Part shown: in pieces, positions 4,392 to 35,557 of the stretch
Position numbering within the stretch: the stretch's first letter is position 1
Layout of the letters: each line of letters starts with the position of its first letter
Virus record (IMG/VR): IMGVR_UViG_3300034072_000647
Length of the DNA stretch: 64,000 bases
DNA from: a virus
Taxonomy: Duplodnaviria > Heunggongvirae > Uroviricota > Caudoviricetes
Direction: 5' to 3' (one strand)
Translations under genes and position numbers: made by a program
Notes under the pieces: model-generated
What the model was told of the DNA's origin: nothing
Databases searched by the model: none
The model's input: only the letters and a program-made list of their open reading frames with translations

Positions 4392-4469
4392 TGGCGAAGG
4401 TTCAGAGAGTCGAACTCTGTCCTCAAGGTTTTGGAGACCCGCGGCTTAACCGTTTGCCCTAACCAACGC
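4392..4469 (-). tRNA. tRNA (anticodon unresolved)
   Basis: T-arm CAGAGTTCGACTCTCTG and a CCA end. The acceptor pairing is partial. Confidence 0.4.
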
Positions 4470-7640: not shown

Positions 7641-7715
7641 TGGTACTCCTAAGGAATTCTGAGATCCTAACCTTCTGCGTGTCGAGCAGATGCTCTACCT
7701 TTGAGCTATAGGAGC
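7641..7715 (-). tRNA. tRNA-Val(GAC)-like with unusual T-loop
   Basis: Acceptor GCTCCTA/TAGGAGT. D-arm AGCTC...GAGCA. Anticodon TCTGC-TCGACAC-GCAGA (C33). CCA end. Confidence 0.45.
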
Positions 7716-7972: not shown

Positions 7973-8233
7973 ATATTGTTTCTTCTGTTTAGTGAAGTCT
8001 TTCCAACTGCGTTTCCAATCACGACTGACACGACGATCGTCCCAGCTGTGTGGAATGTACTTGCGCTTGCCTCGAACCCTATGCCCGTCAGCTTCTGCGC
8101 CGCAGTTCTGTCTGCGCTCGTTCTGTGTTGCTACGCTGCGATAATAACGATGCTTCAAAGAGTATCGGCCAATACCACGCCAGTTCCAACACCAGTCGGA
8201 GTCTTCAGTGATTTTTTCGTATTGCTGTTTCAT
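7958..8233 (-). CDS. Hypothetical basic Trp-rich protein (91 aa)
   Basis: Strong AGGAGGT SD upstream. The 3' end abuts a tRNA. Confidence 0.55.
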   Translation of the reverse strand: MKQQYEKITEDSDWCWNWRGIGRYSLKHRYYRSVATQNERRQNCGAEADGHRVRGKRKYIPHSWDDRRVSRDWKRSWKDFTKQKKQYGAGR

Positions 8234-8276
8234 ATGTTACCTCCTAAATAGTTAACATATGTCACCTCCTTATATC

Positions 8277-8350
8277 TGGATGCCCTTTAAGGATTCGAAC
8301 CTTAATTAACGGAGTCAGAGTCCGCTTTCTTGCCATTAGAAGAAAGGGCA
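8277..8350 (-). tRNA. tRNA-Gln(CTG)
   Basis: Acceptor GCCCTTT/AAAGGGC. Anticodon CGGA-CTCTGAC-TCCG. T-arm AAGGTTCGAATCCTT. CCA end. Confidence 0.65.
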
Positions 8351-8535
8351 ATGGTTGTCTCAACCCTGTATTCTACACACTCCACTATTTTCAGTTCATG
8401 TGTATCTCTAAATTGAGACGAATTAAATTCATTGATAATGTTATTGTAATCTAATGCTACCTCGTAGCGTTTACAAAAACCGTCTGTAGATCCAATTGGC
8501 CTTCTATAGCCGAAATACCGTCTACTAACAATCAT
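8302..8535 (-). CDS. Hypothetical protein (77 aa)
   Basis: ORF between tRNA genes. Confidence 0.45.
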   Translation of the reverse strand: MIVSRRYFGYRRPIGSTDGFCKRYEVALDYNNIINEFNSSQFRDTHELKIVECVEYRVETTIALSSNGKKADSDSVN

Positions 8536-8551
8536 ATTAACCTTTCTGTGA

Positions 8552-8624
8552 TGGTCAGGAGCCGGAGTAACGATCTCCGCCTTTCAAAGGTCCAAGCCTC
8601 GACTGCGTGCCCAGCGCGCCCCTG
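8552..8624 (-). tRNA. tRNA-like element without convincing anticodon stem (T-loop ATCGTTA; internal palindrome CCTTTCAAAGG)
   Basis: Acceptor CAGGGGC/GCTCCTG and a CCA end, but the central region does not fold as a standard anticodon arm. It could be a pseudo-tRNA or a tRNA-mimic RNA. Confidence 0.35.
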
Positions 8625-8641
8625 ATTAAATCATAACTAAG

Positions 8642-8717
8642 TTCGCATCAGTGGATTCGAACCACTCTCCGTCCTGGTTAACAGCCAGGTGCCCTCGCCT
8701 AGATGACTCGATGCGAA
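8642..8717 (-). tRNA. tRNA-Asn(GTT)
   Basis: Acceptor TCGCATC/GATGCGA. Anticodon CCTGG-CTGTTAA-CCAGG. T-arm AGTGGTTCGAATCCACT. Confidence 0.7.
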
Positions 8718-8966
8718 CTTAATTATGAAAAAGTATCAAGAGCGACTAGGGCCTGTAAGTACCCTAGCTTTTCGGGCCGCTCCTGATGTAATCATTATAT
8801 TTGAAAATAGCCTCTAAGTCAAGACTTATTTTCTGGAAGCTTCGGAAATTGTTCTAGAAGGAGCAAGAAAAGAGCTTTGCGACTTAATGGTCCGTCTAAA
8901 GCGTTTAACTTGTTCATAAGCTGGTCAATAGCGAACCATTGACCAGCAATGAAACCTTCTAGGTAG

Positions 8967-10436
8967 TTACTGCCAGTCGTATCGTTCAATTTCGACTGCC
9001 TTACGCATGATAGCGTCAGGGGTGATCTTATCAAGGTCAACTGCAAGAATGGACTTCATGATAGCTGGCGAGAAACCAGAAACCAGAGCCACACCAGCCT
9101 CGTTGAACTTAACCGGCTTGTTACCGCGATCAGCGATGTTCCAGTAAACGATGACAGGAGTCTCGTAACCGGCATCCTGGTACATGCGAGCAATCATTGC
9201 CTGAGCACGGTCGTCGTAACGACCAGGATTGAACTGCATGTCAGACATGATAAGAATAATCTTAGGCATGTCCTCTGCGGGAACTCGATTGCTCATTGCG
9301 TGTGCAAGGATAAGATCGAAAACCGAGCGAAGGTTAGTGCTACCCCAAGCAGCAGAGCAAACAGCCGTAAGGCTTTCAGCAAGGCTGTTAGGGTTGTGAA
9401 CTACGAACTTGGCCTGATCGTTGAAGGAGATAGAGAGATTCTTGAAAGCTCCCTTTGACTTGCTTGCAACATACATACCCAGCGAAGCTGCGACGTCTGC
9501 GCAAGTAATCGTACCGGAGCCACCAGCTGGAGCGCCCATGGAACCGGAGTTATCAACGACAGCGATGACGTTCTGATCGTTCATGTAGTCAGGCAGAGCC
9601 TTCCACATGGCGGTAGCAACTTCATCGTCCTTGTAGTGCTGCGAGCGTCCATAACCATAACGGTTATAGCTAAGATCCTGCGCACCACCAATCATCTTGG
9701 TGATATCGTAAGGATAAACAGCCGAAGCGTTAACCTTCGCGACCTTAGGATCCCCCTTCTTCAGAGCTTCCTTGAAGGCACCGAACGCTTCTGGAGCATT
9801 ACGATGGAATGCGGTCATGTAGCGAGACATTGCGACCGAAGGAACGTGGGAGAAATTAATTCCATTCCACTCCTTCTTACACATGTCAGTCTCAACGACG
9901 TTCGTAAGGCCAACAAGCAGCTTACGGTACTCCTTAGGAGAAAGACCGAAAGTGTTGCGAAGCTCTACAGCCTTCGGACCCTTACGAGGCATCCACTTAG
10001 CCGCAAGACCATTTCCTTCGGAAAGAGCCTTAGCGATAAGATAGAAAGCCTTACGCTTAACAGCAGGGTTAGTGAAGATAAGCAGGTCGTCAAAACGGCC
10101 AATCTCTACCGTGTTGTCAAGAAGTTTGGACTCTGCAAGGATTGCAGGGTCATTCTTCTCAAGCCAAAGCAGGATATCTCGAAAGATCTTACGCTCACCA
10201 GCACCGCCGCGAATGTCACGAGCGTACTGAGCAATACGAATTGCGAGGTCTGCGTCCTGAGCGTAAGCTGCCTCAAAAGCAGGAATTACGTTCTGTCCGC
10301 GCATTGCGCCAACCGAACCGAAGAAGTCGACCAGAGCGCTAGAGGTAGTTGCAAAAGCACGCATACCGTTCTGCGTACGTGCAATTACAGGAGAGTGGCC
10401 GGCGGAGCGGCCGAGAGTGTTAACAAAAGTATTCAT
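8967..10436 (-). CDS. Ro60/TROVE-like protein with C-terminal vWA domain (Rsr-like)
   Basis: The C-terminal half has a vWA MIDAS motif (VVDNSGSM). The N-terminal half resembles the TROVE domain: FFGSVGAMRGQ...LAIRIAQYARDIRGG matches the Ro60 FGSEGGTYY...ALIRLIEDGRG region. Confidence 0.7.
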   Translation of the reverse strand: MNTFVNTLGRSAGHSPVIARTQNGMRAFATTSSALVDFFGSVGAMRGQNVIPAFEAAYAQDADLAIRIAQYARDIRGGAGERKIFRDILLWLEKNDPAILAESKLLDNTVEIGRFDDLLIFTNPAVKRKAFYLIAKALSEGNGLAAKWMPRKGPKAVELRNTFGLSPKEYRKLLVGLTNVVETDMCKKEWNGINFSHVPSVAMSRYMTAFHRNAPEAFGAFKEALKKGDPKVAKVNASAVYPYDITKMIGGAQDLSYNRYGYGRSQHYKDDEVATAMWKALPDYMNDQNVIAVVDNSGSMGAPAGGSGTITCADVAASLGMYVASKSKGAFKNLSISFNDQAKFVVHNPNSLAESLTAVCSAAWGSTNLRSVFDLILAHAMSNRVPAEDMPKIILIMSDMQFNPGRYDDRAQAMIARMYQDAGYETPVIVYWNIADRGNKPVKFNEAGVALVSGFSPAIMKSILAVDLDKITPDAIMRKAVEIERYDWQ

Positions 10437-10731
10437 CTGTATTCATTTCCTTTTTCTAAAAGTATGGTTAGAAAGTGGTTAAGGGTTGCTGTTAGAATAC
10501 ATATAATCTAACCAGGCTGCGTTTGATCGCTAGATCATCCAAAGATAGCGGTTTGTGTTGCTGTACACAGCCTAAAAATATGTAAAACGGGATCGCCTAC
10601 TTCTTTATGTTTAAGGCACAAAAAGAAATCGAAGAAGAAGCCTTGGCCGAAGCCGCAAAACTAGGCAAGCTAGTTTTCGATCATGGAGTATCCGAAGATA
10701 CGCTGGTTTCCCAGTTATTGGTTTGCTGCAA

Positions 10732-10941
10732 TTATCCCTTTTGCTTTTTAGCTAGCTCATCGTCTAGCTTTTTCCATTCCTTGTCGAAGTCTTTCTTTTT
10801 ATTACCAGACAAGGTAGTAGTGTAGGCCTCAGTCCACTCGATTGCATCCCGCAAATACGGAGTAGGCTTGCCCAAAATCTTATTAGTCTCATCCATCATG
10901 ATCGCTCGTTGCATACGATCCCAGAAGAACTGTGCACTCAT
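10732..10941 (-). CDS. Hypothetical protein (69 aa)
   Basis: ORF. Confidence 0.45.
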   Translation of the reverse strand: MSAQFFWDRMQRAIMMDETNKILGKPTPYLRDAIEWTEAYTTTLSGNKKKDFDKEWKKLDDELAKKQKG

Positions 10942-11084
10942 TTCAGTATACCTTTCGACAGAGTTGAAGTCTGTTGCCTTACCATTAGGCTAATTTTCCT
11001 AGAGCGGAAAATATTGGAATTGAACCAATATAATTGTTTTGCTGCTAGTATACTTTATATACTTTAACAGGTTTCATAAAAGAC

Positions 11085-11154
11085 GGATTTGAACCGTACA
11101 GTCTCATTAAAAGTGAGATGCTCTACCCATTGAGCTACTATAATGTTTTGCTGT
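11085..11154 (-). tRNA. tRNA-Lys(TTT)
   Basis: D-arm TAGCTCAATGGGTAGAGCA. Anticodon TCTCA-CTTTTAA-TGAGA. T-arm ACGGTTCAAATCCGT. AT-rich acceptor. Confidence 0.6.
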
Positions 11155-11212
11155 GTGAAACCTAAAATTGTTGCTTTTATTATATCAGAATTGTTGAGGA
11201 TCCGCTCGCGCG

Positions 11213-11290
11213 GGGCCGCCAGGCCAGCTCCTCATAATATGGAGAGGAGCGAAGGAATCGAACCTTCTAGTTTTGTTTGCTGTTACAATT
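11213..11290 (-). tRNA. tRNA-like element (T-arm GAAGGTTCGATTCCTTC plus adjacent hairpins; unresolved)
   Basis: Has a T-arm and a CCA-like end, but the upstream part is AT-rich without a clear cloverleaf. Confidence 0.3.
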
Positions 11291-11292
11291 CT

Positions 11293-11505
11293 TTAAATGG
11301 GAGAGAATTTTATCTTCCCAGCTTTCCACAATTGAAGTTGAGTATTAAAATTCGTATTTAATTGTTCTGATCTAGACTTAAGATGCGCTATAATTATTAT
11401 GTCATCATAACTAGCATCTTCCGGATCTTTACCTAGTATCTCCGCGCACTTACGCTTTAACCTGAATATGTCATCTAATTCAGAACGTGTATAGTGAAAA
11501 TACAT
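11293..11505 (-). CDS. Hypothetical protein
   Basis: ORF trimmed to an internal Met to avoid overlap with tRNA-His. Confidence 0.4.
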   Translation of the reverse strand: MYFHYTRSELDDIFRLKRKCAEILGKDPEDASYDDIIIIAHLKSRSEQLNTNFNTQLQLWKAGKIKFSPI

Positions 11506-11517
11506 ATAATAACCTTT

Positions 11518-11590
11518 TGGTCGTGACGGAGGGATTCGAACCCTCAACTGCGGAATCACAATCCGCCATGTTCACCGTTTACACTACGCC
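11518..11590 (-). tRNA. tRNA-His(GTG)
   Basis: Perfect anticodon hairpin GCGGA-TTGTGAT-TCCGC. T-arm GAGGGTTCGAATCCCTC. CCA end. Confidence 0.6.
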
Positions 11591-11598
11591 ATCGAAAC

Positions 11599-11685
11599 TG
11601 GTGGGAGGGTGTGAGATCGAATCACTCCGGGGTTAACCGAGCGGTTTTACAGACCGCGTGCTAGAACCACTAGCTTTACCCGCCC
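11599..11685 (-). tRNA. tRNA-Tyr(GTA), long variable arm
   Basis: Anticodon GCGGT-CTGTAAA-ACCGC, a variable arm, T-arm GTGATTCGATCTCAC, CCA end. Confidence 0.7.
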
Positions 11686-12254
11686 ATATGCGCTAGCTTA
11701 CCACAGACACGAGCACTAGCGAAGCTGCTCCCGCGAACTCCATTACCCATATCTCCTGATACAACAAAATCGGCCCTATTTCGAGCAGCGTGACTTACCT
11801 TAGTCGTCTGCTCCGTTCCCAATACAGCTACCACACCGGGCAAGGCTGCTGGATAGATACCTTCACTCTTGTCGTTACCAAGCGAGGCCACAATCGTTAG
11901 GCCAAGCTGGTCAGCTACAAACTTGAAATCTTTTGCGCCCTTCTCATCATTAGTAGAGAAAGAAGTACAAACATACTTTACTCCGGCCTTTTTCATTTCG
12001 ATCATTGCTTTATAGGCTATCTGCCAGTCAATAATCACTTCATTGGGTCGAGTAGCGTCTGGGTCACGCTCGAAAGGTGACGCATAATAAACTTTAACGT
12101 TAGGAGCATTTTCCTTGATGGCCTTTAGCACCAAGTCTCCATGCTTATAATCAGTGGATTTGGCACTAACCTGAGTCACTGTCACGGAAGCGTCCGAAGG
12201 CATTCCGTTATCAATAACACCTACAGCGGCTAGAGCCAGTGCAAAAATAAGCAT
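11676..12254 (-). CDS. Secreted compact subtilisin-like serine protease (tentative)
   Basis: Has a signal peptide. Candidate catalytic residues are D in VIDNG, H in KHGDLV and S in GSSFASARVCG (compare GTSMAAPHVAG). Confidence 0.55.
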   Translation of the reverse strand: MLIFALALAAVGVIDNGMPSDASVTVTQVSAKSTDYKHGDLVLKAIKENAPNVKVYYASPFERDPDATRPNEVIIDWQIAYKAMIEMKKAGVKYVCTSFSTNDEKGAKDFKFVADQLGLTIVASLGNDKSEGIYPAALPGVVAVLGTEQTTKVSHAARNRADFVVSGDMGNGVRGSSFASARVCGKLAHMGG

Positions 12255-13567: not shown

Positions 13568-13642
13568 TGGAGCGGGCGACGGGAATCGAACCCGCTCTAT
13601 GTACGGTTTGGAAGACCGACCGCATACCTTATGCTCGCCTGC
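13568..13642 (-). tRNA. tRNA-Gly(TCC)
   Basis: Anticodon GCGGT-CTTCCAA-ACCGT. T-arm AGCGGGTTCGATTCCCGT. CCA end. Confidence 0.6.
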
Positions 13643-13742: not shown

Positions 13743-13818
13743 TGGTCTAGGAGACAGGACTTGAACCTGCAACCCCCTGCTCCCAAAGCAGGTGCGCTAC
13801 CACTTGCGCTACTCCCAG
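13743..13818 (-). tRNA. tRNA-Pro(TGG)
   Basis: D-arm GCGCAAGTGGTAGCGC. Anticodon CCTGC-TTTGGGA-GCAGG. T-arm GCAGGTTCAAGTCCTGT. CCA end. Confidence 0.75.
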
Positions 13819-14931: not shown

Positions 14932-15009
14932 TGGTGAACCGACGAGGATTTGAACCTCGATCCCAAGGATTAAGAGTCCCGGTATTAGCCTATTATTAAG
15001 ATCGGTCCA
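14932..15009 (-). tRNA. tRNA with CTCTTAA anticodon loop (Lys-CTT-like)
   Basis: T-arm CGAGGTTCAAATCCTCG, CCA end, AT-rich D-arm. Confidence 0.5.
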
Positions 15010-21422: not shown

Positions 21423-21689
21423 TTATCTAGTAGGTCTAGCTGGTGGCAGAGGCATGTGCTCTTTTTCTGATAGCCAATACTTACCTTCGGGTCCGCATTT
21501 ATCTCTACCGAACCAGCTTTTCATGCGCTCCCAGTGGGCTGATACAGGGTTACTCTGCCAGCCTTGAACATTAGACCATACCTTCTTACGTCTGCATTGC
21601 CCACTCCAATAATGGAAGCAGGTCTTACAGATAGGTGGAAAGCCTTTCTCGGATGGTTCCGAAAGTTTCCATGTTGGAGACCTTGCCAT
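21423..21689 (-). CDS. Small Cys-rich protein
   Basis: ORF whose 5' end would overlap the nadV 3' end by about 65 nt. The true start may be internal. Confidence 0.3.
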   Translation of the reverse strand: MARSPTWKLSEPSEKGFPPICKTCFHYWSGQCRRKKVWSNVQGWQSNPVSAHWERMKSWFGRDKCGPEGKYWLSEKEHMPLPPARPTR

Positions 21690-23004
21690 TTTCGTATACA
21701 GTCCTCAATTGATCATGATACGACATAGCTGCCGTAGCGCTAGTGGTATTGAATTCGCCCCATTCAGTCTTAATGAGCTTCATACGGCCTTTCTTGCTCA
21801 TCTTACCAGGATCGGTGATAGGGTTCTTGGCAATGCCAATATCCTTACCGTCAATCGTGATATTGCTCGCCTTGAAGGCAAACTTGCAGGTATCTCTGTC
21901 AATGTTAGCCTGCATCAGGCCACCACCCGAACCAGTCATAATGCTATCAGCACTGATGCCCAGCTCCTCAGCAATCTGAAACGGAGTAACTACAGTGTCC
22001 TCATTTATACCGTCACCCTGGAGAATTTTGACATTCTTCAGAACCTTGAAGCCTTTACTGTTGATATCGTAGCCGAAACCTTCTGCGAGGATCGGCAGGA
22101 TCTTAGCAAACACTTCGCGCATGTCACCGCTATCCGGACGAACAACGAGAGTACCGTTCTTGGCACGGATCTTGTCCGCCAGCTTAACCCAATATTCGCA
22201 AGCACGATAAACGTTCCAGGTATCACTAACGACACTCAGGATACAGTTTTCAGGCATCATGTTGTCAATCAGATATTCGAACGAAGCGAACTCGTTCTCT
22301 TCACCGAAGCCGGTCATGACACTGTGTTCCGTGGCTGCTACAGAGTAAGCTGCCATCGGCTCATCATAATAGCGACGTGCGGCAAGCACAGCTGGAATAT
22401 TGTCAGAGCCAACAAAGCTAAGAAGGTGAGCCATGCCACCGACCTCGGAAGTTTCACGGCTAGAGACGCCGCGAGCACTGAAATCGAGAAGAGCGAAAGC
22501 CATATCACCTCGATCACTGGTACGGTCATAGTAAGGCTTGATCTTCTTCTTCATTTCGTGGACGCGAGTGGCAACAGTTACCGGATACCACACAGCACGA
22601 AGCAGAGCGGTTTCGATGTAGCTGGTCAGCCACGGCATACGTGGATCAGTGTTCTCAACCGTTACGAGAACATTGCGGGTAGGCACAACCGTACCTTCCG
22701 GTACCGCCTTGATGCGCACGGGGATGCGCCCATTGTGTTCAAAGACGATAATCAGCCAATCTTCCTCGTTGAAAGGTTCGCCATGAGCAGCAGCAAAAGC
22801 AGCCGCTTCAATGACATCCGCACGAGTTACACGAACTTCGGCCAGCTCCTGGACGAACTTCTGAATACCAGTGAAAACAGTTGCGGGGTATTTACCACCA
22901 CGGCTCTCAGCGTAACTGTATACGTGAGTAGCGCCCTGGGGATAGCCCAGAAAGTGGCTCAATTTATATGAATCGGTATTTAGTACGAAATTAAACTTGT
23001 TCAT
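21625..23004 (-). CDS. nadV: Nicotinamide phosphoribosyltransferase
   Basis: 459 aa with NAMPT-like sequence along its full length (NTDSYKLSHF..., GDG...). Confidence 0.85.
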   Translation of the reverse strand: MNKFNFVLNTDSYKLSHFLGYPQGATHVYSYAESRGGKYPATVFTGIQKFVQELAEVRVTRADVIEAAAFAAAHGEPFNEEDWLIIVFEHNGRIPVRIKAVPEGTVVPTRNVLVTVENTDPRMPWLTSYIETALLRAVWYPVTVATRVHEMKKKIKPYYDRTSDRGDMAFALLDFSARGVSSRETSEVGGMAHLLSFVGSDNIPAVLAARRYYDEPMAAYSVAATEHSVMTGFGEENEFASFEYLIDNMMPENCILSVVSDTWNVYRACEYWVKLADKIRAKNGTLVVRPDSGDMREVFAKILPILAEGFGYDINSKGFKVLKNVKILQGDGINEDTVVTPFQIAEELGISADSIMTGSGGGLMQANIDRDTCKFAFKASNITIDGKDIGIAKNPITDPGKMSKKGRMKLIKTEWGEFNTTSATAAMSYHDQLRTVYENGKVSNMETFGTIRERLSTYL

Positions 23005-24656: not shown

Positions 24657-24904
24657 TAGTCAATAGGCCTTGTATGTCGTTTGAGAATTTCTGCACCTTC
24701 TTCCGCTGTTTTACGAGGTTTTAGAACTTCCTCTTCTTCAACATTTTTATCCACTCTGTTAACCTCATTAATTACGTAAAAGCACCAATAGCGCTCATCA
24801 CTGTTCAATATCTTACGGAAGAAATGTCTCAAAGGCGGAGATCCTGCTTCGAGATATTTATCCATATAAATAAGAAAAGCTAGTTTCTCCGCCTTAGTAA
24901 ACAT
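24656..24904 (-). CDS. Hypothetical protein (82 aa)
   Basis: ORF coupled to natV. Confidence 0.5.
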   Translation of the reverse strand: MFTKAEKLAFLIYMDKYLEAGSPPLRHFFRKILNSDERYWCFYVINEVNRVDKNVEEEEVLKPRKTAEEGAEILKRHTRPID

Positions 24905-25920
24905 TACAGTCCCAACATATTCTTAATGATGTGATAGTGGTCCTCGAAGAACAGCTCTTCACGCAGATCAGAGATCGGGTACCAATCAGCATGATCGGCA
25001 TCATCCGAACCTCGAACTTCTGGCAGGCTAGTCTCATTGCGCAGCTTGATATGCTGCACCAGAGACGCGATACGGCCGCGCTCCGAGCGATTAGGATGAT
25101 CCGCGAAGAAGTTACCATGCACGCTGCCCTTAAGTACTGGCAGGGGCACCTTCAGTCGAGTCTCTTCCTTCAGCTCACGGAAAGCAGCATCAAAGCAAGT
25201 CTCGTCAGGGTTTACGAAACCGCCAGGCAGTGCCAGCAAGCCCTGACCATACTCCTTACCACGAGTAATAAGCAGGATGTTACCACCCACCTGGACCAGC
25301 GCATCAGCCGTCAAAAAGACACCATTACCCCACAGTTTCTTGTAGTTCTTGATGTATTCAAACTCGCTACGAAGGCGATCAGCTTCAGGAGTTCCCATGA
25401 ACTCGTTCTTAATCCAACGAACAGTATCACGATGCATAATCGTGGACAGTTCAAAGGCCTGGTGATCTTCCGCGAAGAACATTTCACGGATTGCAGTCGC
25501 ATTAAGCGGACTAGCAACAGGAACGTCCTCGCTGAGGAGCTCGGGGAACAGTTTCAGGTAGTAGCTAGTGTTGTCCTTGGCGTGACCTATCAGACCTACC
25601 TTGAGATCCTTCATCCCAAGACCAGTCCACTTGTCTCCAAGTGCAACTTCCTTGATATTCTTCTGGACTTCCTCAATCCAAGCGGTATCGTTGTAAGTGT
25701 GGTCCTTGACCCCACGAACGATAACATTCGGGTAGATCGTCTTAATCATATTCCGACGTTCGAGATAAGTGAACGGATTGCGCGTGGAACGCGCCTTCCC
25801 CTCTCCGCCTACCAGAACCAGAACTCGTTCGGACAAAGAAAGAGCGCGTTCAATCACTTCCTGGTGGCCCAAGTGAAGTGGCTGAAAGCGCCCGATAAAA
25901 ACTAGCAGATCATATTTCAT
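24904..25920 (-). CDS. natV: Bifunctional NMN adenylyltransferase / Nudix hydrolase
   Basis: N-terminal GRFQPLHLGH (HxGH cytidylyltransferase motif). C-terminal Nudix box GGFVNPDETCFDAAFRELKEETRL. Confidence 0.85.
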   Translation of the reverse strand: MKYDLLVFIGRFQPLHLGHQEVIERALSLSERVLVLVGGEGKARSTRNPFTYLERRNMIKTIYPNVIVRGVKDHTYNDTAWIEEVQKNIKEVALGDKWTGLGMKDLKVGLIGHAKDNTSYYLKLFPELLSEDVPVASPLNATAIREMFFAEDHQAFELSTIMHRDTVRWIKNEFMGTPEADRLRSEFEYIKNYKKLWGNGVFLTADALVQVGGNILLITRGKEYGQGLLALPGGFVNPDETCFDAAFRELKEETRLKVPLPVLKGSVHGNFFADHPNRSERGRIASLVQHIKLRNETSLPEVRGSDDADHADWYPISDLREELFFEDHYHIIKNMLGL

Positions 25921-27901: not shown

Positions 27902-28429
27902 AGAGTATCTCCTAAATTCTGTGGCCCGTTGGGTAACAAGGTGGGCCAGACCCCGGTCACTTATGCGGCGAGACGAATCTCGTCGAAAGCGACAACGTCA
28001 TTGTCGTTTGCGTTTACTTTTTGTGGCCAGTTTAAGTTTAGCCAGACTATAGCCTAACGTGCTTTTTTCACGCCGAATCGATCTCAGTTCTGCCCCATCA
28101 ATATTCTAGTAAAACTTCTAAGCTACACTGACCCATGCCAACGTCCTTAGACCATAGGAATCTCTCGTTTTGCAATCGAGCGCTTTGTTTTTCTGTTACC
28201 GCAGAATGGTCATTCGTCTTGTCGGGAGAGTAGTGCCTCGGTAAAAGCAGGGAGTCCCTATACTAGAATAATGGTGGAGCAGGTGGGAGTCAAACCCACG
28301 TCTTCAGCTGCTATTAAGTCGCTTCAAGCGGCTATTTAGTTAGATAAGTATAATGTTACCACGCAGGGTAGAGAACAATATACTTATCAATCTCGTTATG
28401 TCTCAATATACTAAATTTGAGCCGTCAAG

Positions 28430-34871: not shown

Positions 34872-35083
34872 TATCTACAAACCTTTTACTCTCCTAACAT
34901 CACTTCTAGACAGAAAGGCCTTCCCGTTCTAGGTTACTGATAGTCAAGCGATAGTCGCACCAAAATCATATTATATAGAGTCAGGCTGGTCAGCATTGCC
35001 AGCGAAATACTCTAATTCTCGGAGCTGTTCGAGGAGTCGTTTTTAACGCCCGGTTAAACTACTGAATCTATATAATATGCGCG

Positions 35084-35152
35084 TTTGCAGGCTGGGACTC
35101 GAACCCAGACTCCCGATCATAGGCCGGGGTGCTGCCGTTACACTACCTGCGT
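35084..35152 (-). tRNA. tRNA-like element (anticodon hairpin CCCGG-CCTATGA-TCGGG; no CCA)
   Basis: T-arm CTGGGTTCGAGTCCCAG and a D-arm-like GTG..CAC. Confidence 0.3.
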
Positions 35153-35484: not shown

Positions 35485-35557
35485 TTCTTGATGTAGGAAT
35501 CCAACCTACCTTTATTCCGGTTTAAATCCGGATTGACTCGCAGAATCATAATCAAGA
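35485..35557 (-). tRNA. tRNA-like element with anticodon loop ATTTAAA (UUA, ochre-suppressor-like); T-loop TTGGATT
   Basis: Perfect hairpin TCCGG-ATTTAAA-CCGGA. Acceptor TCTTGAT/ATCAAGA. D-stem GATT/AATC. The T-loop deviates (G56). Confidence 0.3.

What the first reader, a model, noticed from the sequence alone, without database searches (positions are those of the whole stretch)
8967..10436. Ro60/TROVE-vWA (Rsr-like) protein inside the phage tRNA cluster
The 489 aa product has a C-terminal vWA MIDAS motif (DNSGSM) and an N-terminal half that resembles the TROVE domain of Ro60 (FGSxGG...LIRLIEDGRG-like segments). Ro60/Rsr proteins bind Y RNAs, and bacterial Y-RNA-like RNAs (YrlA) mimic tRNA and are encoded next to rsr. 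This gene sits among tRNA genes and next to atypical tRNA-like elements: the anticodon-stem-less element at 8552-8624 and the ORF-free 10437-10606 upstream leader, which contains a GGCTG...CAGCC-enclosed structure. A phage Ro60 together with its own tRNA-mimic RNA would point to an RNA quality-control or ribosome-targeting function.
Basis: partly seen in the sequence, partly recalled or inferred. Interest (0 to 1): 0.75.

Follow-up and report, generated by a model that had tools for sequence, protein, structure and literature searches.

The report
Phage Ro-like protein with partner RNAs
A phage gene for a ring-shaped, Ro60-like RNA-binding protein sits directly behind six small structured RNAs that share a common "stem plus CAGCAA" handle; two of them mimic tRNA, and the same gene-RNA pairing recurs in phages of many bacterial phyla, pointing to an undescribed counterpart of the Ro60/Y-RNA particle.

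Summary
The ORF is real: 8967-10436, minus strand, 489 aa. It is not a Pfam TROVE protein. It matches DUF2828 + DUF7788 (PHROG 850), a family found in at least 710 phage records. Its predicted fold matches only Ro60/Rsr structures over the full length, and its vWA MIDAS residues are invariant in an alignment of 64 homologs.

8552-8624 is a conserved atypical tRNA-Pro(UGG), not a Y-like RNA. The 10437-10606 leader holds two members (E, F) of a family of six tandem units (A-F, 10437-11293, gene strand). Each unit has a closing stem, 2-4 nt, CAGCAA, a variable cargo, and the complementary strand followed by G. Units A and C carry circularly permuted tRNA-like cargo, the YrlA topology. Unit B carries a tRNA-Lys(UUU) body.

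Covariation supports the helices. No Rfam Y_RNA/YrlA model matches, although the YrlA model does find the published YrlA beside the true TROVE Ro of mycobacteriophage ET08.

The scaffold flanks DUF2828-type genes in T5-like, T4-like, Felix O1-like (including Bas63 gp130, a known anti-Ppl factor), Listeria, Staphylococcus, Bacillus, Campylobacter, Fusobacterium and mycobacterial phages. It is about 40-fold enriched, on the gene strand only, in two independent locus sets.

Best reading: a divergent Ro-like ribonucleoprotein system with a new Y-RNA-like class. Physical binding is inferred, not shown.

The parts
8967..10436 (-). Ro-like protein gene (489 aa): N-terminal alpha-helical repeat domain (DUF2828) plus C-terminal vWA domain (DUF7788)
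   Evidence: ORF. Pfam DUF7788 6e-40 and DUF2828 1.7e-28. PHROG 850 'RNA-binding protein' 6e-130, full length. AF2 pLDDT 81. Foldseek top 11 hits are all Ro60/Rsr/phiLo Ro60, E 5e-11 to 1e-6.
9540..9554 (-). MIDAS DxSxS motif (D295-N-S297-G-S299) of the vWA domain
   Evidence: Read from the translation. D295, S297, S299, T367 and D399 are invariant in 64 homologs.
10437..10501 (-). Unit F: scaffold unit in the 5' UTR. Stem TGTATTC/GAATACA, CAGCAA at 10491-10486. The 3' strand ends 1 nt before the ATG and the RBS lies in or next to it.
   Evidence: Strict scan. Helix 100% paired with 3 double-sided covarying pairs. An equivalent unit sits just before the RBS in most relatives, down to 39-46% protein identity.
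10513..10573 (-). Unit E: stem AGGCTGTG/CGCAGCCT, CAGCAA at 10563-10558, inner hairpin CGCTA...TAGCG.
   Evidence: Closing helix 8 bp, 100% paired, 3 double-sided covarying pairs. Leader conserved in L001, L050, L123, L124, L126, L128 and L130.
10588..10738 (-). Unit D: long unit closed by GGGAT/ATCCC followed by G, CAGCAA (as GCAGCAAACC) at 10728-10723, several internal tetraloop hairpins. Its 5' strand overlaps the stop codon of a 69-aa ORF.
   Evidence: The closure appears in the MFE fold. Homologous units with the same cargo hairpins occur in L127, L128 and L130. This is the weakest of the six: a 5-bp stem, and missed by the strict scan.
10943..11057 (-). Unit C: permuted tRNA-like unit. 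Stem AGTATAC/GTATACT, CAGCAA at 11044-11039, T arm (ATTGG-TTCAATT-CCAAT), closed acceptor stem, D arm, and an anticodon-type arm with loop CUUCAAC.
   Evidence: Model R1 45.5 bits, E 1e-8. Fold. Rfam tRNA 29.2 bits over 10922-10999. Strict scan.
11067..11166 (-). Unit B: scaffold (AGGTTTC/GAAACCT, CAGCAA at 11153-11148) enclosing a tRNA-Lys(UUU) body whose own acceptor stem has two mismatches.
   Evidence: ARAGORN and Rfam call a tRNA at 11074-11145, with non-canonical acceptor pairs flagged. R1 22.6 bits.. Equivalent acceptor-poor tRNA bodies sit in the scaffold in L126, L006, L123 and L127.
11186..11293 (-). Unit A: permuted tRNA-like unit. Closing stem 11293-11286/11194-11187, CAGCAA 11283-11278, T arm 11267-11251, closed 7-bp acceptor stem 11250-11244/11233-11227 with N-CCA (11242-11240) in its loop, D-like hairpin 11225-11214, GNRA hairpin 11213-11202.
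   Evidence: MFE -40.3 kcal/mol, z = -4.6. In a 7-sequence alignment 99% of cells are paired, 16 of 28 pairs have double-sided changes, 0 of 500 shuffles reach this, and slid controls give 35-51%. R1 114 bits.

Best explanation
The gene encodes a divergent Ro60-like ring protein: a helical repeat domain plus a vWA domain with an intact MIDAS site. It belongs to the DUF2828/PHROG 850 family. The six RNA units transcribed just upstream on the same strand are its cognate small RNAs, the functional counterpart of Y RNAs.

Proposed working:
- The units are made as part of the tRNA-cluster transcript.
- Each folds so that its 5' and 3' ends pair into a 6-9 bp basal stem, next to a single-stranded CAGCAA.
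- This invariant handle is the protein-binding module. It plays the role of the conserved 5'-strand helix of Y RNAs.
- The variable cargo is the effector module. It can be a permuted tRNA-like domain, a tRNA-Lys body, or a short hairpin. It would tether the ring to tRNA-recognising factors or nucleases, or act as a decoy.
- The unit in the gene's own 5' UTR allows feedback on translation.

Shown here, by computation only: the fold, the RNA structures with covariation, and the strong, strand-specific, cross-phylum gene-RNA linkage.

Inferred: physical binding, autoregulation, and a role in RNA surveillance or counter-defence.
For: Protein:
- DUF2828 + DUF7788; PHROG 850.
- Ro60-only full-length structural neighbours.
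- Invariant MIDAS residues and many invariant Arg/Lys in the helical half.

RNA:
- Unit A has five helices, 99% paired, with 16 of 28 pairs compensatory.
- Units E and F are 100% paired with 6 compensatory pairs.
- All 81 matches to the covariance model built from unit A lie on the gene's strand.
- Single exceptions in closing stems favour G.U over A.C, 36 to 15, on the gene strand only.

Linkage:
- Strict units reach 2.63/kb in the 350 nt upstream of the gene, against 0 on the opposite strand and about 0.06/kb background. 42 of 58 loci carry an adjacent unit.
- An independent set of 55 loci replicates this: 2.44 against 0.044/kb, and 39 of 55 against 3 of 55 loci.
- Reverse test starting from the RNA pattern alone: 15 of 29 stem-bearing matches have the gene within 21-1458 nt on the same strand, against 0 of 52 stemless matches, p = 1e-8.
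- In BigCheese (72.8 kb) the only 3 hits abut the gene, while the tRNA cluster lies more than 20 km... 20 kb away.
- Units abut the gene in S13, Phi87, Bas63, LP-048, a Staphylococcus phage, Campylobacter F352, Bacillus PK-3, Fusobacterium Fnu1 and Vibrio K566.

Analogy:
- YrlA has the same T / closed-acceptor / D order and is encoded within 4 kb on the same strand (PMC4201824; bioRxiv 10.1101/312249).
- phiLo Yrl1 and Yrl2 lie upstream of phiRo60 and bind it (PMC12135203).
Against: - No binding data exist.
- Six scaffold-bearing loci with ample flanks lie in big tRNA clusters with no Ro-like gene within 3-9 kb. In PC-Liy1 a related RNA is about 11 kb from the gene. Linkage is therefore frequent, not obligatory.
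- 16 of 58 and 16 of 55 loci show no strict unit beside the gene.
- Bas63 gp130 alone, expressed from a plasmid or from T7, counters Ppl (PMC11482910). At least that activity does not require the phage's own RNAs.
- The published Ro-binding motif GNCGAA is absent from the 5' side of the units.
- The protein's relation to Ro60 rests on predicted fold only (TM about 0.55).
Confidence: 0.62

Rival explanations
1. The units are cis-acting punctuation of phage tRNA-cluster and polycistronic transcripts. They would be processing or stability signals recognised by a host or phage RNase. The Ro-like gene merely tends to be embedded in such transcripts, and the protein does not bind them.
For: Several scaffold units occur inside large tRNA clusters with no Ro-like gene in the fetched 3-9 kb. 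The units are co-oriented with tRNAs. No promoter or terminator separates them from neighbouring genes in the window. gp130 works without them against Ppl.
Against: Units abut the gene where no tRNAs are nearby: BigCheese, where the tRNAs are more than 20 kb away, and the Staphylococcus phage, Fnu1 and K566. In the window's 16-kb tRNA cluster they occur only in the 860 nt before the gene. The phages concerned have unrelated transcription and processing set-ups and hosts from different phyla; the only shared element seen next to the units in the loci examined is the DUF2828 gene.
Confidence: 0.2
2. The tRNA-like units are genuine but unconventional tRNA genes. They would be circularly permuted or acceptor-extended precursors, matured by RNase P, 3' trimming or CCA use into two-piece or re-joined tRNAs that decode (Lys-UUU, a UCA-anticodon species). 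The Ro-like protein would act as their maturation chaperone.
For: A 7-bp acceptor stem with a conserved N-CCA at the exact tRNA 3'-end position occurs in unit-A-type RNAs. Units B and C carry canonical anticodon loops. M. smegmatis YrlA is cleaved by RNase P and receives CCA. Permuted tRNA genes exist in algae (discussed). S13 has intact-ended versions.
Against: Unit A has a GNRA/UUCG-capped hairpin instead of an anticodon loop. About half of all units are 80 nt or shorter, and only 62 of 317 carry a T-loop-like motif. Many tRNA-like units lack CCA: unit C, Phi87 and BigCheese. No bacterial pathway is known that would rejoin the halves.
Confidence: 0.1
3. The structure is only a 5'-UTR regulatory leader (riboswitch-like or protein-independent) of the Ro-like gene, duplicated by chance.
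For: A unit ends 1-25 nt before the RBS or ATG in most lineages. In the window clade the 3' strand overlaps the RBS region.
Against: In BigCheese, the Staphylococcus phage, Phi87, Bas63 and S13 the units are downstream of the gene. There are up to 5-6 tandem copies with different cargo. S13 carries the module inside free-standing tRNA-like RNAs.
Confidence: 0.05
4. The repeats act at the DNA level, as recombination or protein-binding inverted repeats flanking cassettes, rather than as RNA.
For: The repeats are short inverted repeats bracketing variable 'cargo', and they occur in tandem arrays.
Against: Strand bias is complete: 55 against 0 and 55 against 1 upstream hits. G.U tolerance is seen on one strand only. 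The cargo consists of tRNA-type RNA folds with covariation.
Confidence: 0.03

Closest known systems
Bacterial Ro60 (Rsr) with YrlA/YrlB Y RNAs (Salmonella, Mycobacterium; also mycobacteriophage ET08 gp220 + YrlA)
   Same: A ring-type helical-repeat domain plus vWA/MIDAS protein. Small RNAs are encoded within a few kb on the same strand. The RNA 5' and 3' ends pair into a stem next to a conserved motif. One RNA per locus has a circularly permuted tRNA-like domain in T / closed-acceptor / D order, alongside shorter RNAs without it (YrlA and YrlB).
   Different: The protein is DUF2828 + DUF7788, not TROVE + vWA_Ro60, and shares no significant sequence similarity with them. The RNA motif is CAGCAA after the 5' strand, not GNCGAAN0-1G. 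Rfam YrlA does not match, although it does find ET08's YrlA. Up to six tandem units occur. Some units contain whole tRNA bodies or an encoded CCA.
Thermus phage phiLo phiRo60 with Yrl1/Yrl2 (PDB 9KOP, 9L5Y)
   Same: It is the best structural neighbour of the model (E 5e-11). It is phage-encoded. Its two Y-like RNAs lie directly upstream of the gene, each with a 5'-3' stem flanking a loop that carries a short conserved motif.
   Different: phiRo60 is a TROVE-domain protein and the Yrl motif is CGAA. Binding and PNPase recruitment are experimentally shown there; nothing is shown here.
Escherichia phage Bas63 (JohannRWettstein) gp130
   Same: Same protein family: 38% identity, E 1e-96, full length. 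It sits directly upstream of the tRNA cluster. Its authors noted Ro60-like structure and guessed that some neighbouring 'tRNAs' might be Y RNAs. It counters the Ppl defence.
   Different: The candidate RNAs found here are not the annotated tRNAs. They are four unannotated CAGCAA-stem units between the tRNAs, at record positions 82,072-82,907. No phenotype is known for the window's phage.
Circularly permuted tRNA genes (Cyanidioschyzon) and two-piece (permuted) tmRNA
   Same: The gene order is T arm, 3' acceptor strand, (CCA), loop, 5' acceptor strand, D arm. A closing helix is formed by the transcript ends.
   Different: The break lies at the variable-region or anticodon side, with an added conserved CAGCAA handle. 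Unit A has no anticodon or mRNA-like part. The acceptor stem has no G3:U70 alanine identity pair.
'Pseudo-tRNAs' of T4-like phages (S13 tRNA-Ser 121 nt and tRNA-OTHER 113 nt; KVP40 tRNA-Pseudo-4)
   Same: They carry the same module (stem, N3, CAGCA), inserted where the anticodon arm should be in an otherwise complete tRNA with CCA. They are the unpermuted form of unit A.
   Different: Their free ends are at the acceptor stem rather than at the scaffold stem. They are annotated only as aberrant tRNAs.

Membership tests
Ro60/Rsr (Pfam TROVE PF05731 + vWA_Ro60 PF25045) | Significant match to the TROVE and Ro60-vWA sequence models | tested here: not met
   Pfam lists only DUF7788, DUF2828 and a weak VWA_2 hit. 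ET08 gp220 scores TROVE 4.7e-49 and vWA_Ro60 2e-54 as a control. BLASTP against gp220 gives E = 0.12. A family profile against PDB Ro60 gives E = 0.34-1.1.
Ro60/Rsr (Pfam TROVE PF05731 + vWA_Ro60 PF25045) | Fold: alpha-helical repeat domain followed by a vWA domain, superposable on Ro60 over the full length | tested here: met
   The 11 best Foldseek PDB hits are all Ro60, Rsr or phiLo Ro60: probability 1.0, E 5e-11 to 1.4e-6, about 480-580 aligned columns, TM 0.40-0.55. The model is predicted (pLDDT 81). Ring closure was not inspected.
Ro60/Rsr (Pfam TROVE PF05731 + vWA_Ro60 PF25045) | MIDAS site (DxSxS...T...D) in the vWA domain | tested here: met
   D295, S297, S299, T367 and D399 are invariant in 64 homologs.
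Ro60/Rsr (Pfam TROVE PF05731 + vWA_Ro60 PF25045) | Binds Y RNA on the outer surface and single-stranded RNA ends in the central cavity | not testable with these tools
   This needs biochemistry or a structure of the complex.
DUF2828 / PHROG 850 'Ro-like RNA-binding protein' family | Full-length match to PHROG 850 and to Pfam DUF2828 + DUF7788 | tested here: met
   PHROG 850 6.1e-130 over residues 1-488. Pfam. 710 phage records by tblastn. More than 6,320 database proteins with the same two domains.
YrlA / Y RNA (Rfam RF02553, RF00019) | Match to the family covariance model | tested here: not met
   No hit at E <= 10 in 8200-11700, nor at E <= 0.1 in S13, Phi87, BigCheese or phiWae14. The positive control, ET08, gives a YrlA hit at E 9e-6.
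YrlA / Y RNA (Rfam RF02553, RF00019) | Conserved GNCGAAN0-1G (Ro-binding) motif near the 5' end | tested here: not met
   The only occurrence, GTCGAAAG at 10959, is at the 3' side of unit C. The conserved motif here is CAGCAA.
YrlA / Y RNA (Rfam RF02553, RF00019) | Encoded within about 4 kb of the Ro gene on the same strand; 5' and 3' ends form a stem | tested here: met
   Units lie 1-857 nt upstream on the same strand. Closing stems covary.
YrlA / Y RNA (Rfam RF02553, RF00019) | Effector domain that is a circularly permuted tRNA mimic (T arm, closed acceptor stem-loop, D arm) | tested here: met
   Units A and C. Equivalent units occur in Phi87, BigCheese, PK-3 and S13. Tertiary contacts were not modelled. 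The D loop of unit A is only 4 nt.
Canonical tRNA (for the element at 8552-8624) | Cloverleaf with anticodon arm, T arm and acceptor stem, scoring above the Rfam tRNA threshold | tested here: inconclusive
   ARAGORN calls tRNA-Pro(tgg). Rfam tRNA gives no hit. The alignment fold shows a conserved cloverleaf with a 3-bp D stem, an invariant anticodon loop and CCA.

The most novel reading that the evidence does not exclude
A pan-phage ribonucleoprotein that has gone unrecognised. The DUF2828 Ro-like ring would use a universal 'basal stem + CAGCAA' handle to carry interchangeable RNA cargoes: permuted tRNA mimics, acceptor-less tRNA-Lys(UUU) or Thr/Glu bodies, and anticodon-arm mimics. These cargoes would serve as decoys or adaptors against host defences that sense or cleave tRNAs and other nucleic acids (anticodon nucleases, PARIS-type systems, Ppl). 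The conserved N-CCA and the alternative acceptor pairing in unit A would mark a processing- or state-dependent switch.
Probability: 0.3. Interest if true: 0.9.

Novelty: new variant of a known kind. Interest (0 to 1): 0.8.

Why it matters
Ro60/Y-RNA particles are conserved from bacteria to humans, yet their functions remain only partly understood.

The DUF2828-type relative is far more common in phages than true TROVE Ro60. It occurs in at least 710 deposited phage genomes, including the Felix O1, A511/P100-like, Twort-like, KVP40-like and mycobacteriophage groups. One member, Bas63 gp130, already has an anti-defence phenotype. No RNA partner has been defined for this family.

A simple, searchable RNA signature beside the gene makes the question directly testable in cultured phages, by RIP, EMSA and unit deletions on Ppl hosts. 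It explains many 'pseudo-tRNA' calls and spurious small-ORF annotations. It also supplies a natural modular RNA scaffold: one protein handle with swappable tRNA-like cargo.

Tried and rejected
- Megablast of 8000-11500 against phages found no close relative. NCBIfam gave no hit. A PDB sequence search gave no hit.
- Rfam at gathering and at permissive thresholds found no Y_RNA, YrlA or other family for the units.
- I considered 8552-8624 as the Y-like RNA and rejected it. It is a conserved atypical tRNA-Pro, has no scaffold, and lies at a variable distance from the gene.
- ARAGORN's 88-nt 'tRNA-Phe(aaa)' at 11240-11327 is rejected as a miscall of unit A.
- I considered self-cleaving ribozymes (hammerhead, twister, hatchet, HDV/theta-like). 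No Rfam match was found and no consensus cores were seen by eye.
- I considered a phage promoter. This is unlikely across unrelated phage families, and the helix covaries.
- A loose motif-plus-stem scan gave too much background (26 hits against about 16 in shuffles), so I replaced it with stricter scans.
- The phiWae14 locus showed no clear unit.
- Chen et al. 2014 supplementary tables are not held, and Burroughs & Aravind 2016 is not held. I could not check whether any DUF2828-type phage was in their YrlA list or whether DUF2828 was discussed there.
- The Bas63 screen text gives nothing on genes 137/138, which overlap unit 4.
- The alternative pairing in unit A was not tested formally, because the MAFFT alignment is shifted there.
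Full report
OBSERVATION. The ORF at 8967-10436 (minus strand) is real: ATG start, 489 aa. It lies in a same-strand cluster of about 30 tRNA genes spanning roughly 1.3-16.8 kb. The context looks like a T5-like phage: DNA-transfer protein PHROG 1745, a D5-like regulator, ThyX, NAMPT, NMNAT-Nudix and a large terminase. No close relative exists among deposited phages.

PROTEIN. Pfam gives DUF7788 (residues 289-465, 6e-40) and DUF2828 (1.7e-28), and only a marginal VWA_2 hit. There is no TROVE hit. PHROG 850 'RNA-binding protein' matches end to end at 6e-130. NCBIfam and PDB sequence searches are empty. A 64-sequence family profile reaches Ro60 only at E = 0.34-1.1, and only over the MIDAS stretch.

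An AlphaFold2 model built from that alignment has mean pLDDT 81 and pTM 0.70. Its 11 best PDB neighbours by Foldseek are all Ro60-type structures: Thermus phage phiLo Ro60 (9KOP, 9L5Y), D. radiodurans Rsr (2NVO), and Xenopus and human Ro60. E-values run from 5e-11 to 1.4e-6 over about 480-580 aligned columns, with TM 0.40-0.55. Plain vWA domains follow only at E > 1e-3. The MIDAS residues D295, S297, S299, T367 and D399 are invariant in the alignment, and the helical half carries many invariant Arg/Lys.

So the protein works like, and is probably a remote homolog of, Ro60. By sequence it belongs to a separate family. That family is large: 710 phage records by tblastn, all below 60% identity, spread over Escherichia/Salmonella Felix O1-like, Mycobacterium, Vibrio, Listeria, Staphylococcus, Campylobacter, Enterococcus, Bacillus and Aeromonas phages. 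Some are annotated 'Ro-like RNA binding protein'. More than 6,320 database proteins match.

Infernal scans against all Rfam families found only tRNAs around the gene, even at E <= 10. There was no Y_RNA or YrlA hit.

The 8552-8624 element has homologs in five related contigs, 0.35-4.4 kb from the gene. It folds as a cloverleaf with a short D stem, a G.U-rich anticodon stem, an invariant CUUGGAC loop (UGG) and an encoded CCA. 12 of its 22 pairs show compensatory change. It is a conserved atypical tRNA-Pro and not an anticodon-stem-less Y-like RNA.

The leader at 10437-10606 is conserved at coding-like levels in seven relatives.

WHAT IS ACTUALLY THERE. Reading the upstream region and comparing relatives revealed six tandem units on the gene strand between 10437 and 11293. 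Each unit has:
- a 5' strand of a closing stem, usually beginning (T)AGG;
- 2-4 nt;
- CAGCAA;
- a variable cargo, often followed by an A-rich stretch;
- the complementary strand, followed by G.

Unit A (11186-11293) folds with MFE -40.3 kcal/mol, z = -4.6. Its order is closing stem, T arm with a canonical UUCGAUU loop, a closed 7-bp acceptor stem whose loop starts with N-CCA, a 4-bp D-like hairpin with a UGGY loop, and a GNRA/UUCG-capped hairpin. On seven homologs, 99% of cells pair and 16 of 28 pairs show double-sided changes. No shuffle out of 500 reaches this, and slid controls give 35-51%.

Unit C (10943-11057) has the same permuted order but keeps a D arm and an anticodon-type arm. Unit B (11067-11166) encloses a tRNA-Lys(UUU) body whose own acceptor stem has two mismatches. 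Unit D (10588-10738) is long and closed by only 5 bp; it has homologs in three relatives. Units E and F (10513-10573 and 10437-10501) are short. Their helices are 100% paired with six compensatory pairs. Unit F ends 1 nt before the ATG.

The T / closed-acceptor / D order, with the RNA ends forming a stem, is the published YrlA architecture (PMC4201824; bioRxiv 10.1101/312249).

IS THE SCAFFOLD TIED TO THE GENE?
1. A covariance model built from unit A found 81 matches in 705 kb of related loci. All are on the gene's strand, and many abut the gene.
2. In most relatives, down to 39-46% protein identity, a unit ends 1-25 nt before the RBS or ATG.
3. A strict scan (7-bp stem, exact CAGCAA) over 58 non-redundant loci gives 2.63 units/kb in the 350 nt upstream on the gene strand. 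The opposite strand gives 0, and background is about 0.06/kb. 42 of 58 loci carry an adjacent unit, against 1 of 58 on the opposite strand.
4. An independent set of 55 loci from genome and MAG contigs (29-51% identity, many phyla) replicates this: 2.44 against 0.044/kb, and 39 of 55 against 3 of 55 loci.
5. Reverse test. A pattern taken from the RNA alone (TTAGG-N7-CAGCAAACC) was scanned over IMG/VR. Of 29 matches that also have the closing stem, 15 have a DUF2828 homolog in the locus, all on the same strand and 21-1458 nt away. None of 52 stemless matches does (Fisher p = 9.5e-9).
6. Whole genomes. In mycobacteriophage BigCheese (72.8 kb) the only three hits are tandem units 41-297 nt downstream of its Ro-like gene, while its tRNA cluster is more than 20 kb away. 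In the window, 5 of 7 hits are the cluster before the gene. In Phi87, 4 hits lie within 1.2 kb downstream. In ET08, which has a true TROVE Ro, none lies near the gene.
7. Other phyla. Units abut the gene in Listeria LP-048 (3), a Staphylococcus phage (3), Campylobacter F352 (2), Bacillus PK-3 (5, one tRNA-like), Fusobacterium Fnu1 (1, the only CAGCAA on that strand in 7.5 kb), Vibrio K566 (1) and Cronobacter S13.
8. S13 also carries two complete, CCA-ended tRNA-like RNAs in which the anticodon arm is replaced by 'stem-tetraloop, UAU, UCAGCA'. This is the unpermuted form of unit A and shows that the handle is a transferable module. Relatives in KVP40-like phages are annotated as pseudo-tRNAs.
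9. Single non-Watson-Crick exceptions in closing stems favour G.U over A.C, 36 to 15, on the gene strand only. This fits an RNA read from that strand.

From 317 units, the consensus is TTTA-AGGnnnn-(n)UA-CAGCAA...A-rich...nnnnCCU-G. The median length is 80 nt, and about one fifth carry a T-loop-like motif.

RELATION TO KNOWN SYSTEMS. Rfam does contain YrlA (RF02553). It detects the published YrlA just upstream of ET08 gp220 (E 9e-6), and gp220 is a true TROVE + vWA_Ro60 protein. The same scans find nothing beside DUF2828-type genes. The published Ro-binding motif GNCGAAN0-1G is absent from the 5' side of the units.

Thermus phage phiLo has two Y-like RNAs upstream of its TROVE-type Ro60, which bind it and recruit PNPase (PMC12135203). 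For the DUF2828 type I found only a passing speculation. Bas63 gp130 is 38% identical to the window protein (E 1e-96). [quoted passage not shown] My scan places four CAGCAA-stem units in the unannotated gaps between Bas63's first tRNAs, at record positions 82,072-82,907.

Searches of the held literature found no description of this RNA family. That library is incomplete.

MECHANISM. Best reading (confidence about 0.6): the protein binds the basal stem plus CAGCAA handle of these RNAs, as Ro60 binds the conserved 5'-strand helix of Y RNAs. The cargo, most often a tRNA mimic, is the effector module. The 5'-UTR unit gives feedback.

Shown here: the fold, the RNA structures, and the gene-RNA linkage. 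Inferred: binding, autoregulation and biological role.

Evidence against:
- Linkage is not obligatory. Six scaffold-positive loci lie in big tRNA clusters without the gene in 3-9 kb, and PC-Liy1's related RNA is about 11 kb from its gene.
- About 28% of loci lack a strict adjacent unit.
- gp130 alone suffices against Ppl.

The main rival (about 0.2) is that the units are processing or stability punctuation of tRNA-cluster transcripts. BigCheese, the Staphylococcus phage, Fnu1 and K566 argue against this, because their units sit at the gene and away from tRNAs. Smaller rivals are genuine permuted or split tRNAs, a mere 5'-UTR leader, and DNA-level repeats.

UNEXPLAINED. In unit A the 5' acceptor strand has a second complementary partner downstream (TCCUC). 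It covaries with that strand in all seven homologs (GAGGA/TCCTC, GAGGGA/TCCCTC, CGGGA/TCCCG). The N-CCA in the acceptor loop is conserved in this RNA type but absent in others. Together these suggest processing or a conformational switch. I did not test this formally.

VERDICT. Its RNA idea is right in spirit, but the elements it named are mostly not the ones that matter. The result is a new variant of a known kind: a Ro-like protein family with its own, apparently undescribed, Y-RNA-like partner class.

Noticed in passing
window 27961-28335 (-): A circularly permuted (two-piece type) tmRNA gene, Rfam RF04321 at 85.6 bits. Related contigs also carry tmRNA genes near the Ro-like gene (L003, L007).
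   Followed up: no
window 35485-35557 (-), 35083-35152 (-); unit C 10943-11057: An ochre-suppressor-type tRNA (anticodon tta) and a tRNA-Ile(tat) lie far from the main cluster. Unit C carries a UCA (opal-reading) anticodon-like loop. Many relatives carry an amber-suppressor tRNA(cta) within a few kb of the Ro-like gene. Stop-codon recoding in this phage group is possible.
   Followed up: no
window 8552-8624 (-): A conserved atypical tRNA-Pro(UGG) with a 3-bp D stem, a non-canonical T loop in some copies and an encoded CCA. It occurs in addition to a canonical tRNA-Pro(UGG) at 13743-13818. 12 of its 22 pairs covary across six phages.
   Followed up: partly
window 8822-8794 (-) and about 8785-8735 (-): A near-consensus sigma-70 promoter (TTGACT-17-TATAAT) lies immediately after the Ro-like stop codon. 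It is followed by a nested hairpin (AGGAGCG...CTAGGG-loop-CCCTAG...CGCTCTT) ahead of tRNA-Asn. The stretch is conserved in L124 and L127.
   Followed up: partly
window 11240-11327 (-); 7644-7715, 2834-2909, 4395-4467, 13571-13642, 14935-15008 (-): ARAGORN's 88-nt 'tRNA-Phe(aaa)' is a miscall of unit A. Conversely, Rfam finds five further tRNAs that ARAGORN missed.
   Followed up: partly
window 21625-23004 (-), 24904-25920 (-): NAD+ salvage genes (NAMPT; NMNAT-Nudix). Phi87/Bas63 and BigCheese, which carry the same Ro-like family, also encode NAD-salvage enzymes and a polynucleotide kinase. This may be a recurrent counter-defence gene set.
   Followed up: no
L132 6791-6967 and 7358-7615; L269 22748-23022; L144 4477-4824: Deposited annotations place small 'hypothetical protein' CDSs over the RNA units: on the opposite strand for Phi87_08/09 and bas63_0137/0138, and on the same strand for CoNPh4_CDS0144/0145. 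These are probably mis-annotations.
   Followed up: partly
L131 6856-7098 (Cronobacter phage S13); KVP40 180966-181094: Abnormally long 'tRNAs' (121 and 113 nt, annotated tRNA-Ser, tRNA-OTHER and tRNA-Pseudo) are complete CCA-ended tRNA-like RNAs whose anticodon arm is replaced by the stem + CAGCA module.
   Followed up: partly
L143 5852-7063 (Listeria LP-048); L131 11241+ (S13): An RtcB-type RNA ligase lies 1.3 kb downstream of the Ro-like gene in LP-048, and a tRNA nucleotidyltransferase lies about 5 kb downstream in S13. This echoes the bacterial rsr-yrlA-rtcBA arrangement.
   Followed up: no
L294, L302, L323: Gene-plus-unit loci occur on contigs binned as Pacearchaeota and Promethearchaeota MAGs. 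The system may extend to archaeal viruses, or the binning may be wrong.
   Followed up: no
window 11676-12254 (-) and 10732-10941 (-): A subtilase-like 192-aa ORF sits inside the tRNA cluster. A 69-aa ORF with no family match sits between units C and D; its C-terminus resembles a CDS upstream of the gene in L129.
   Followed up: no
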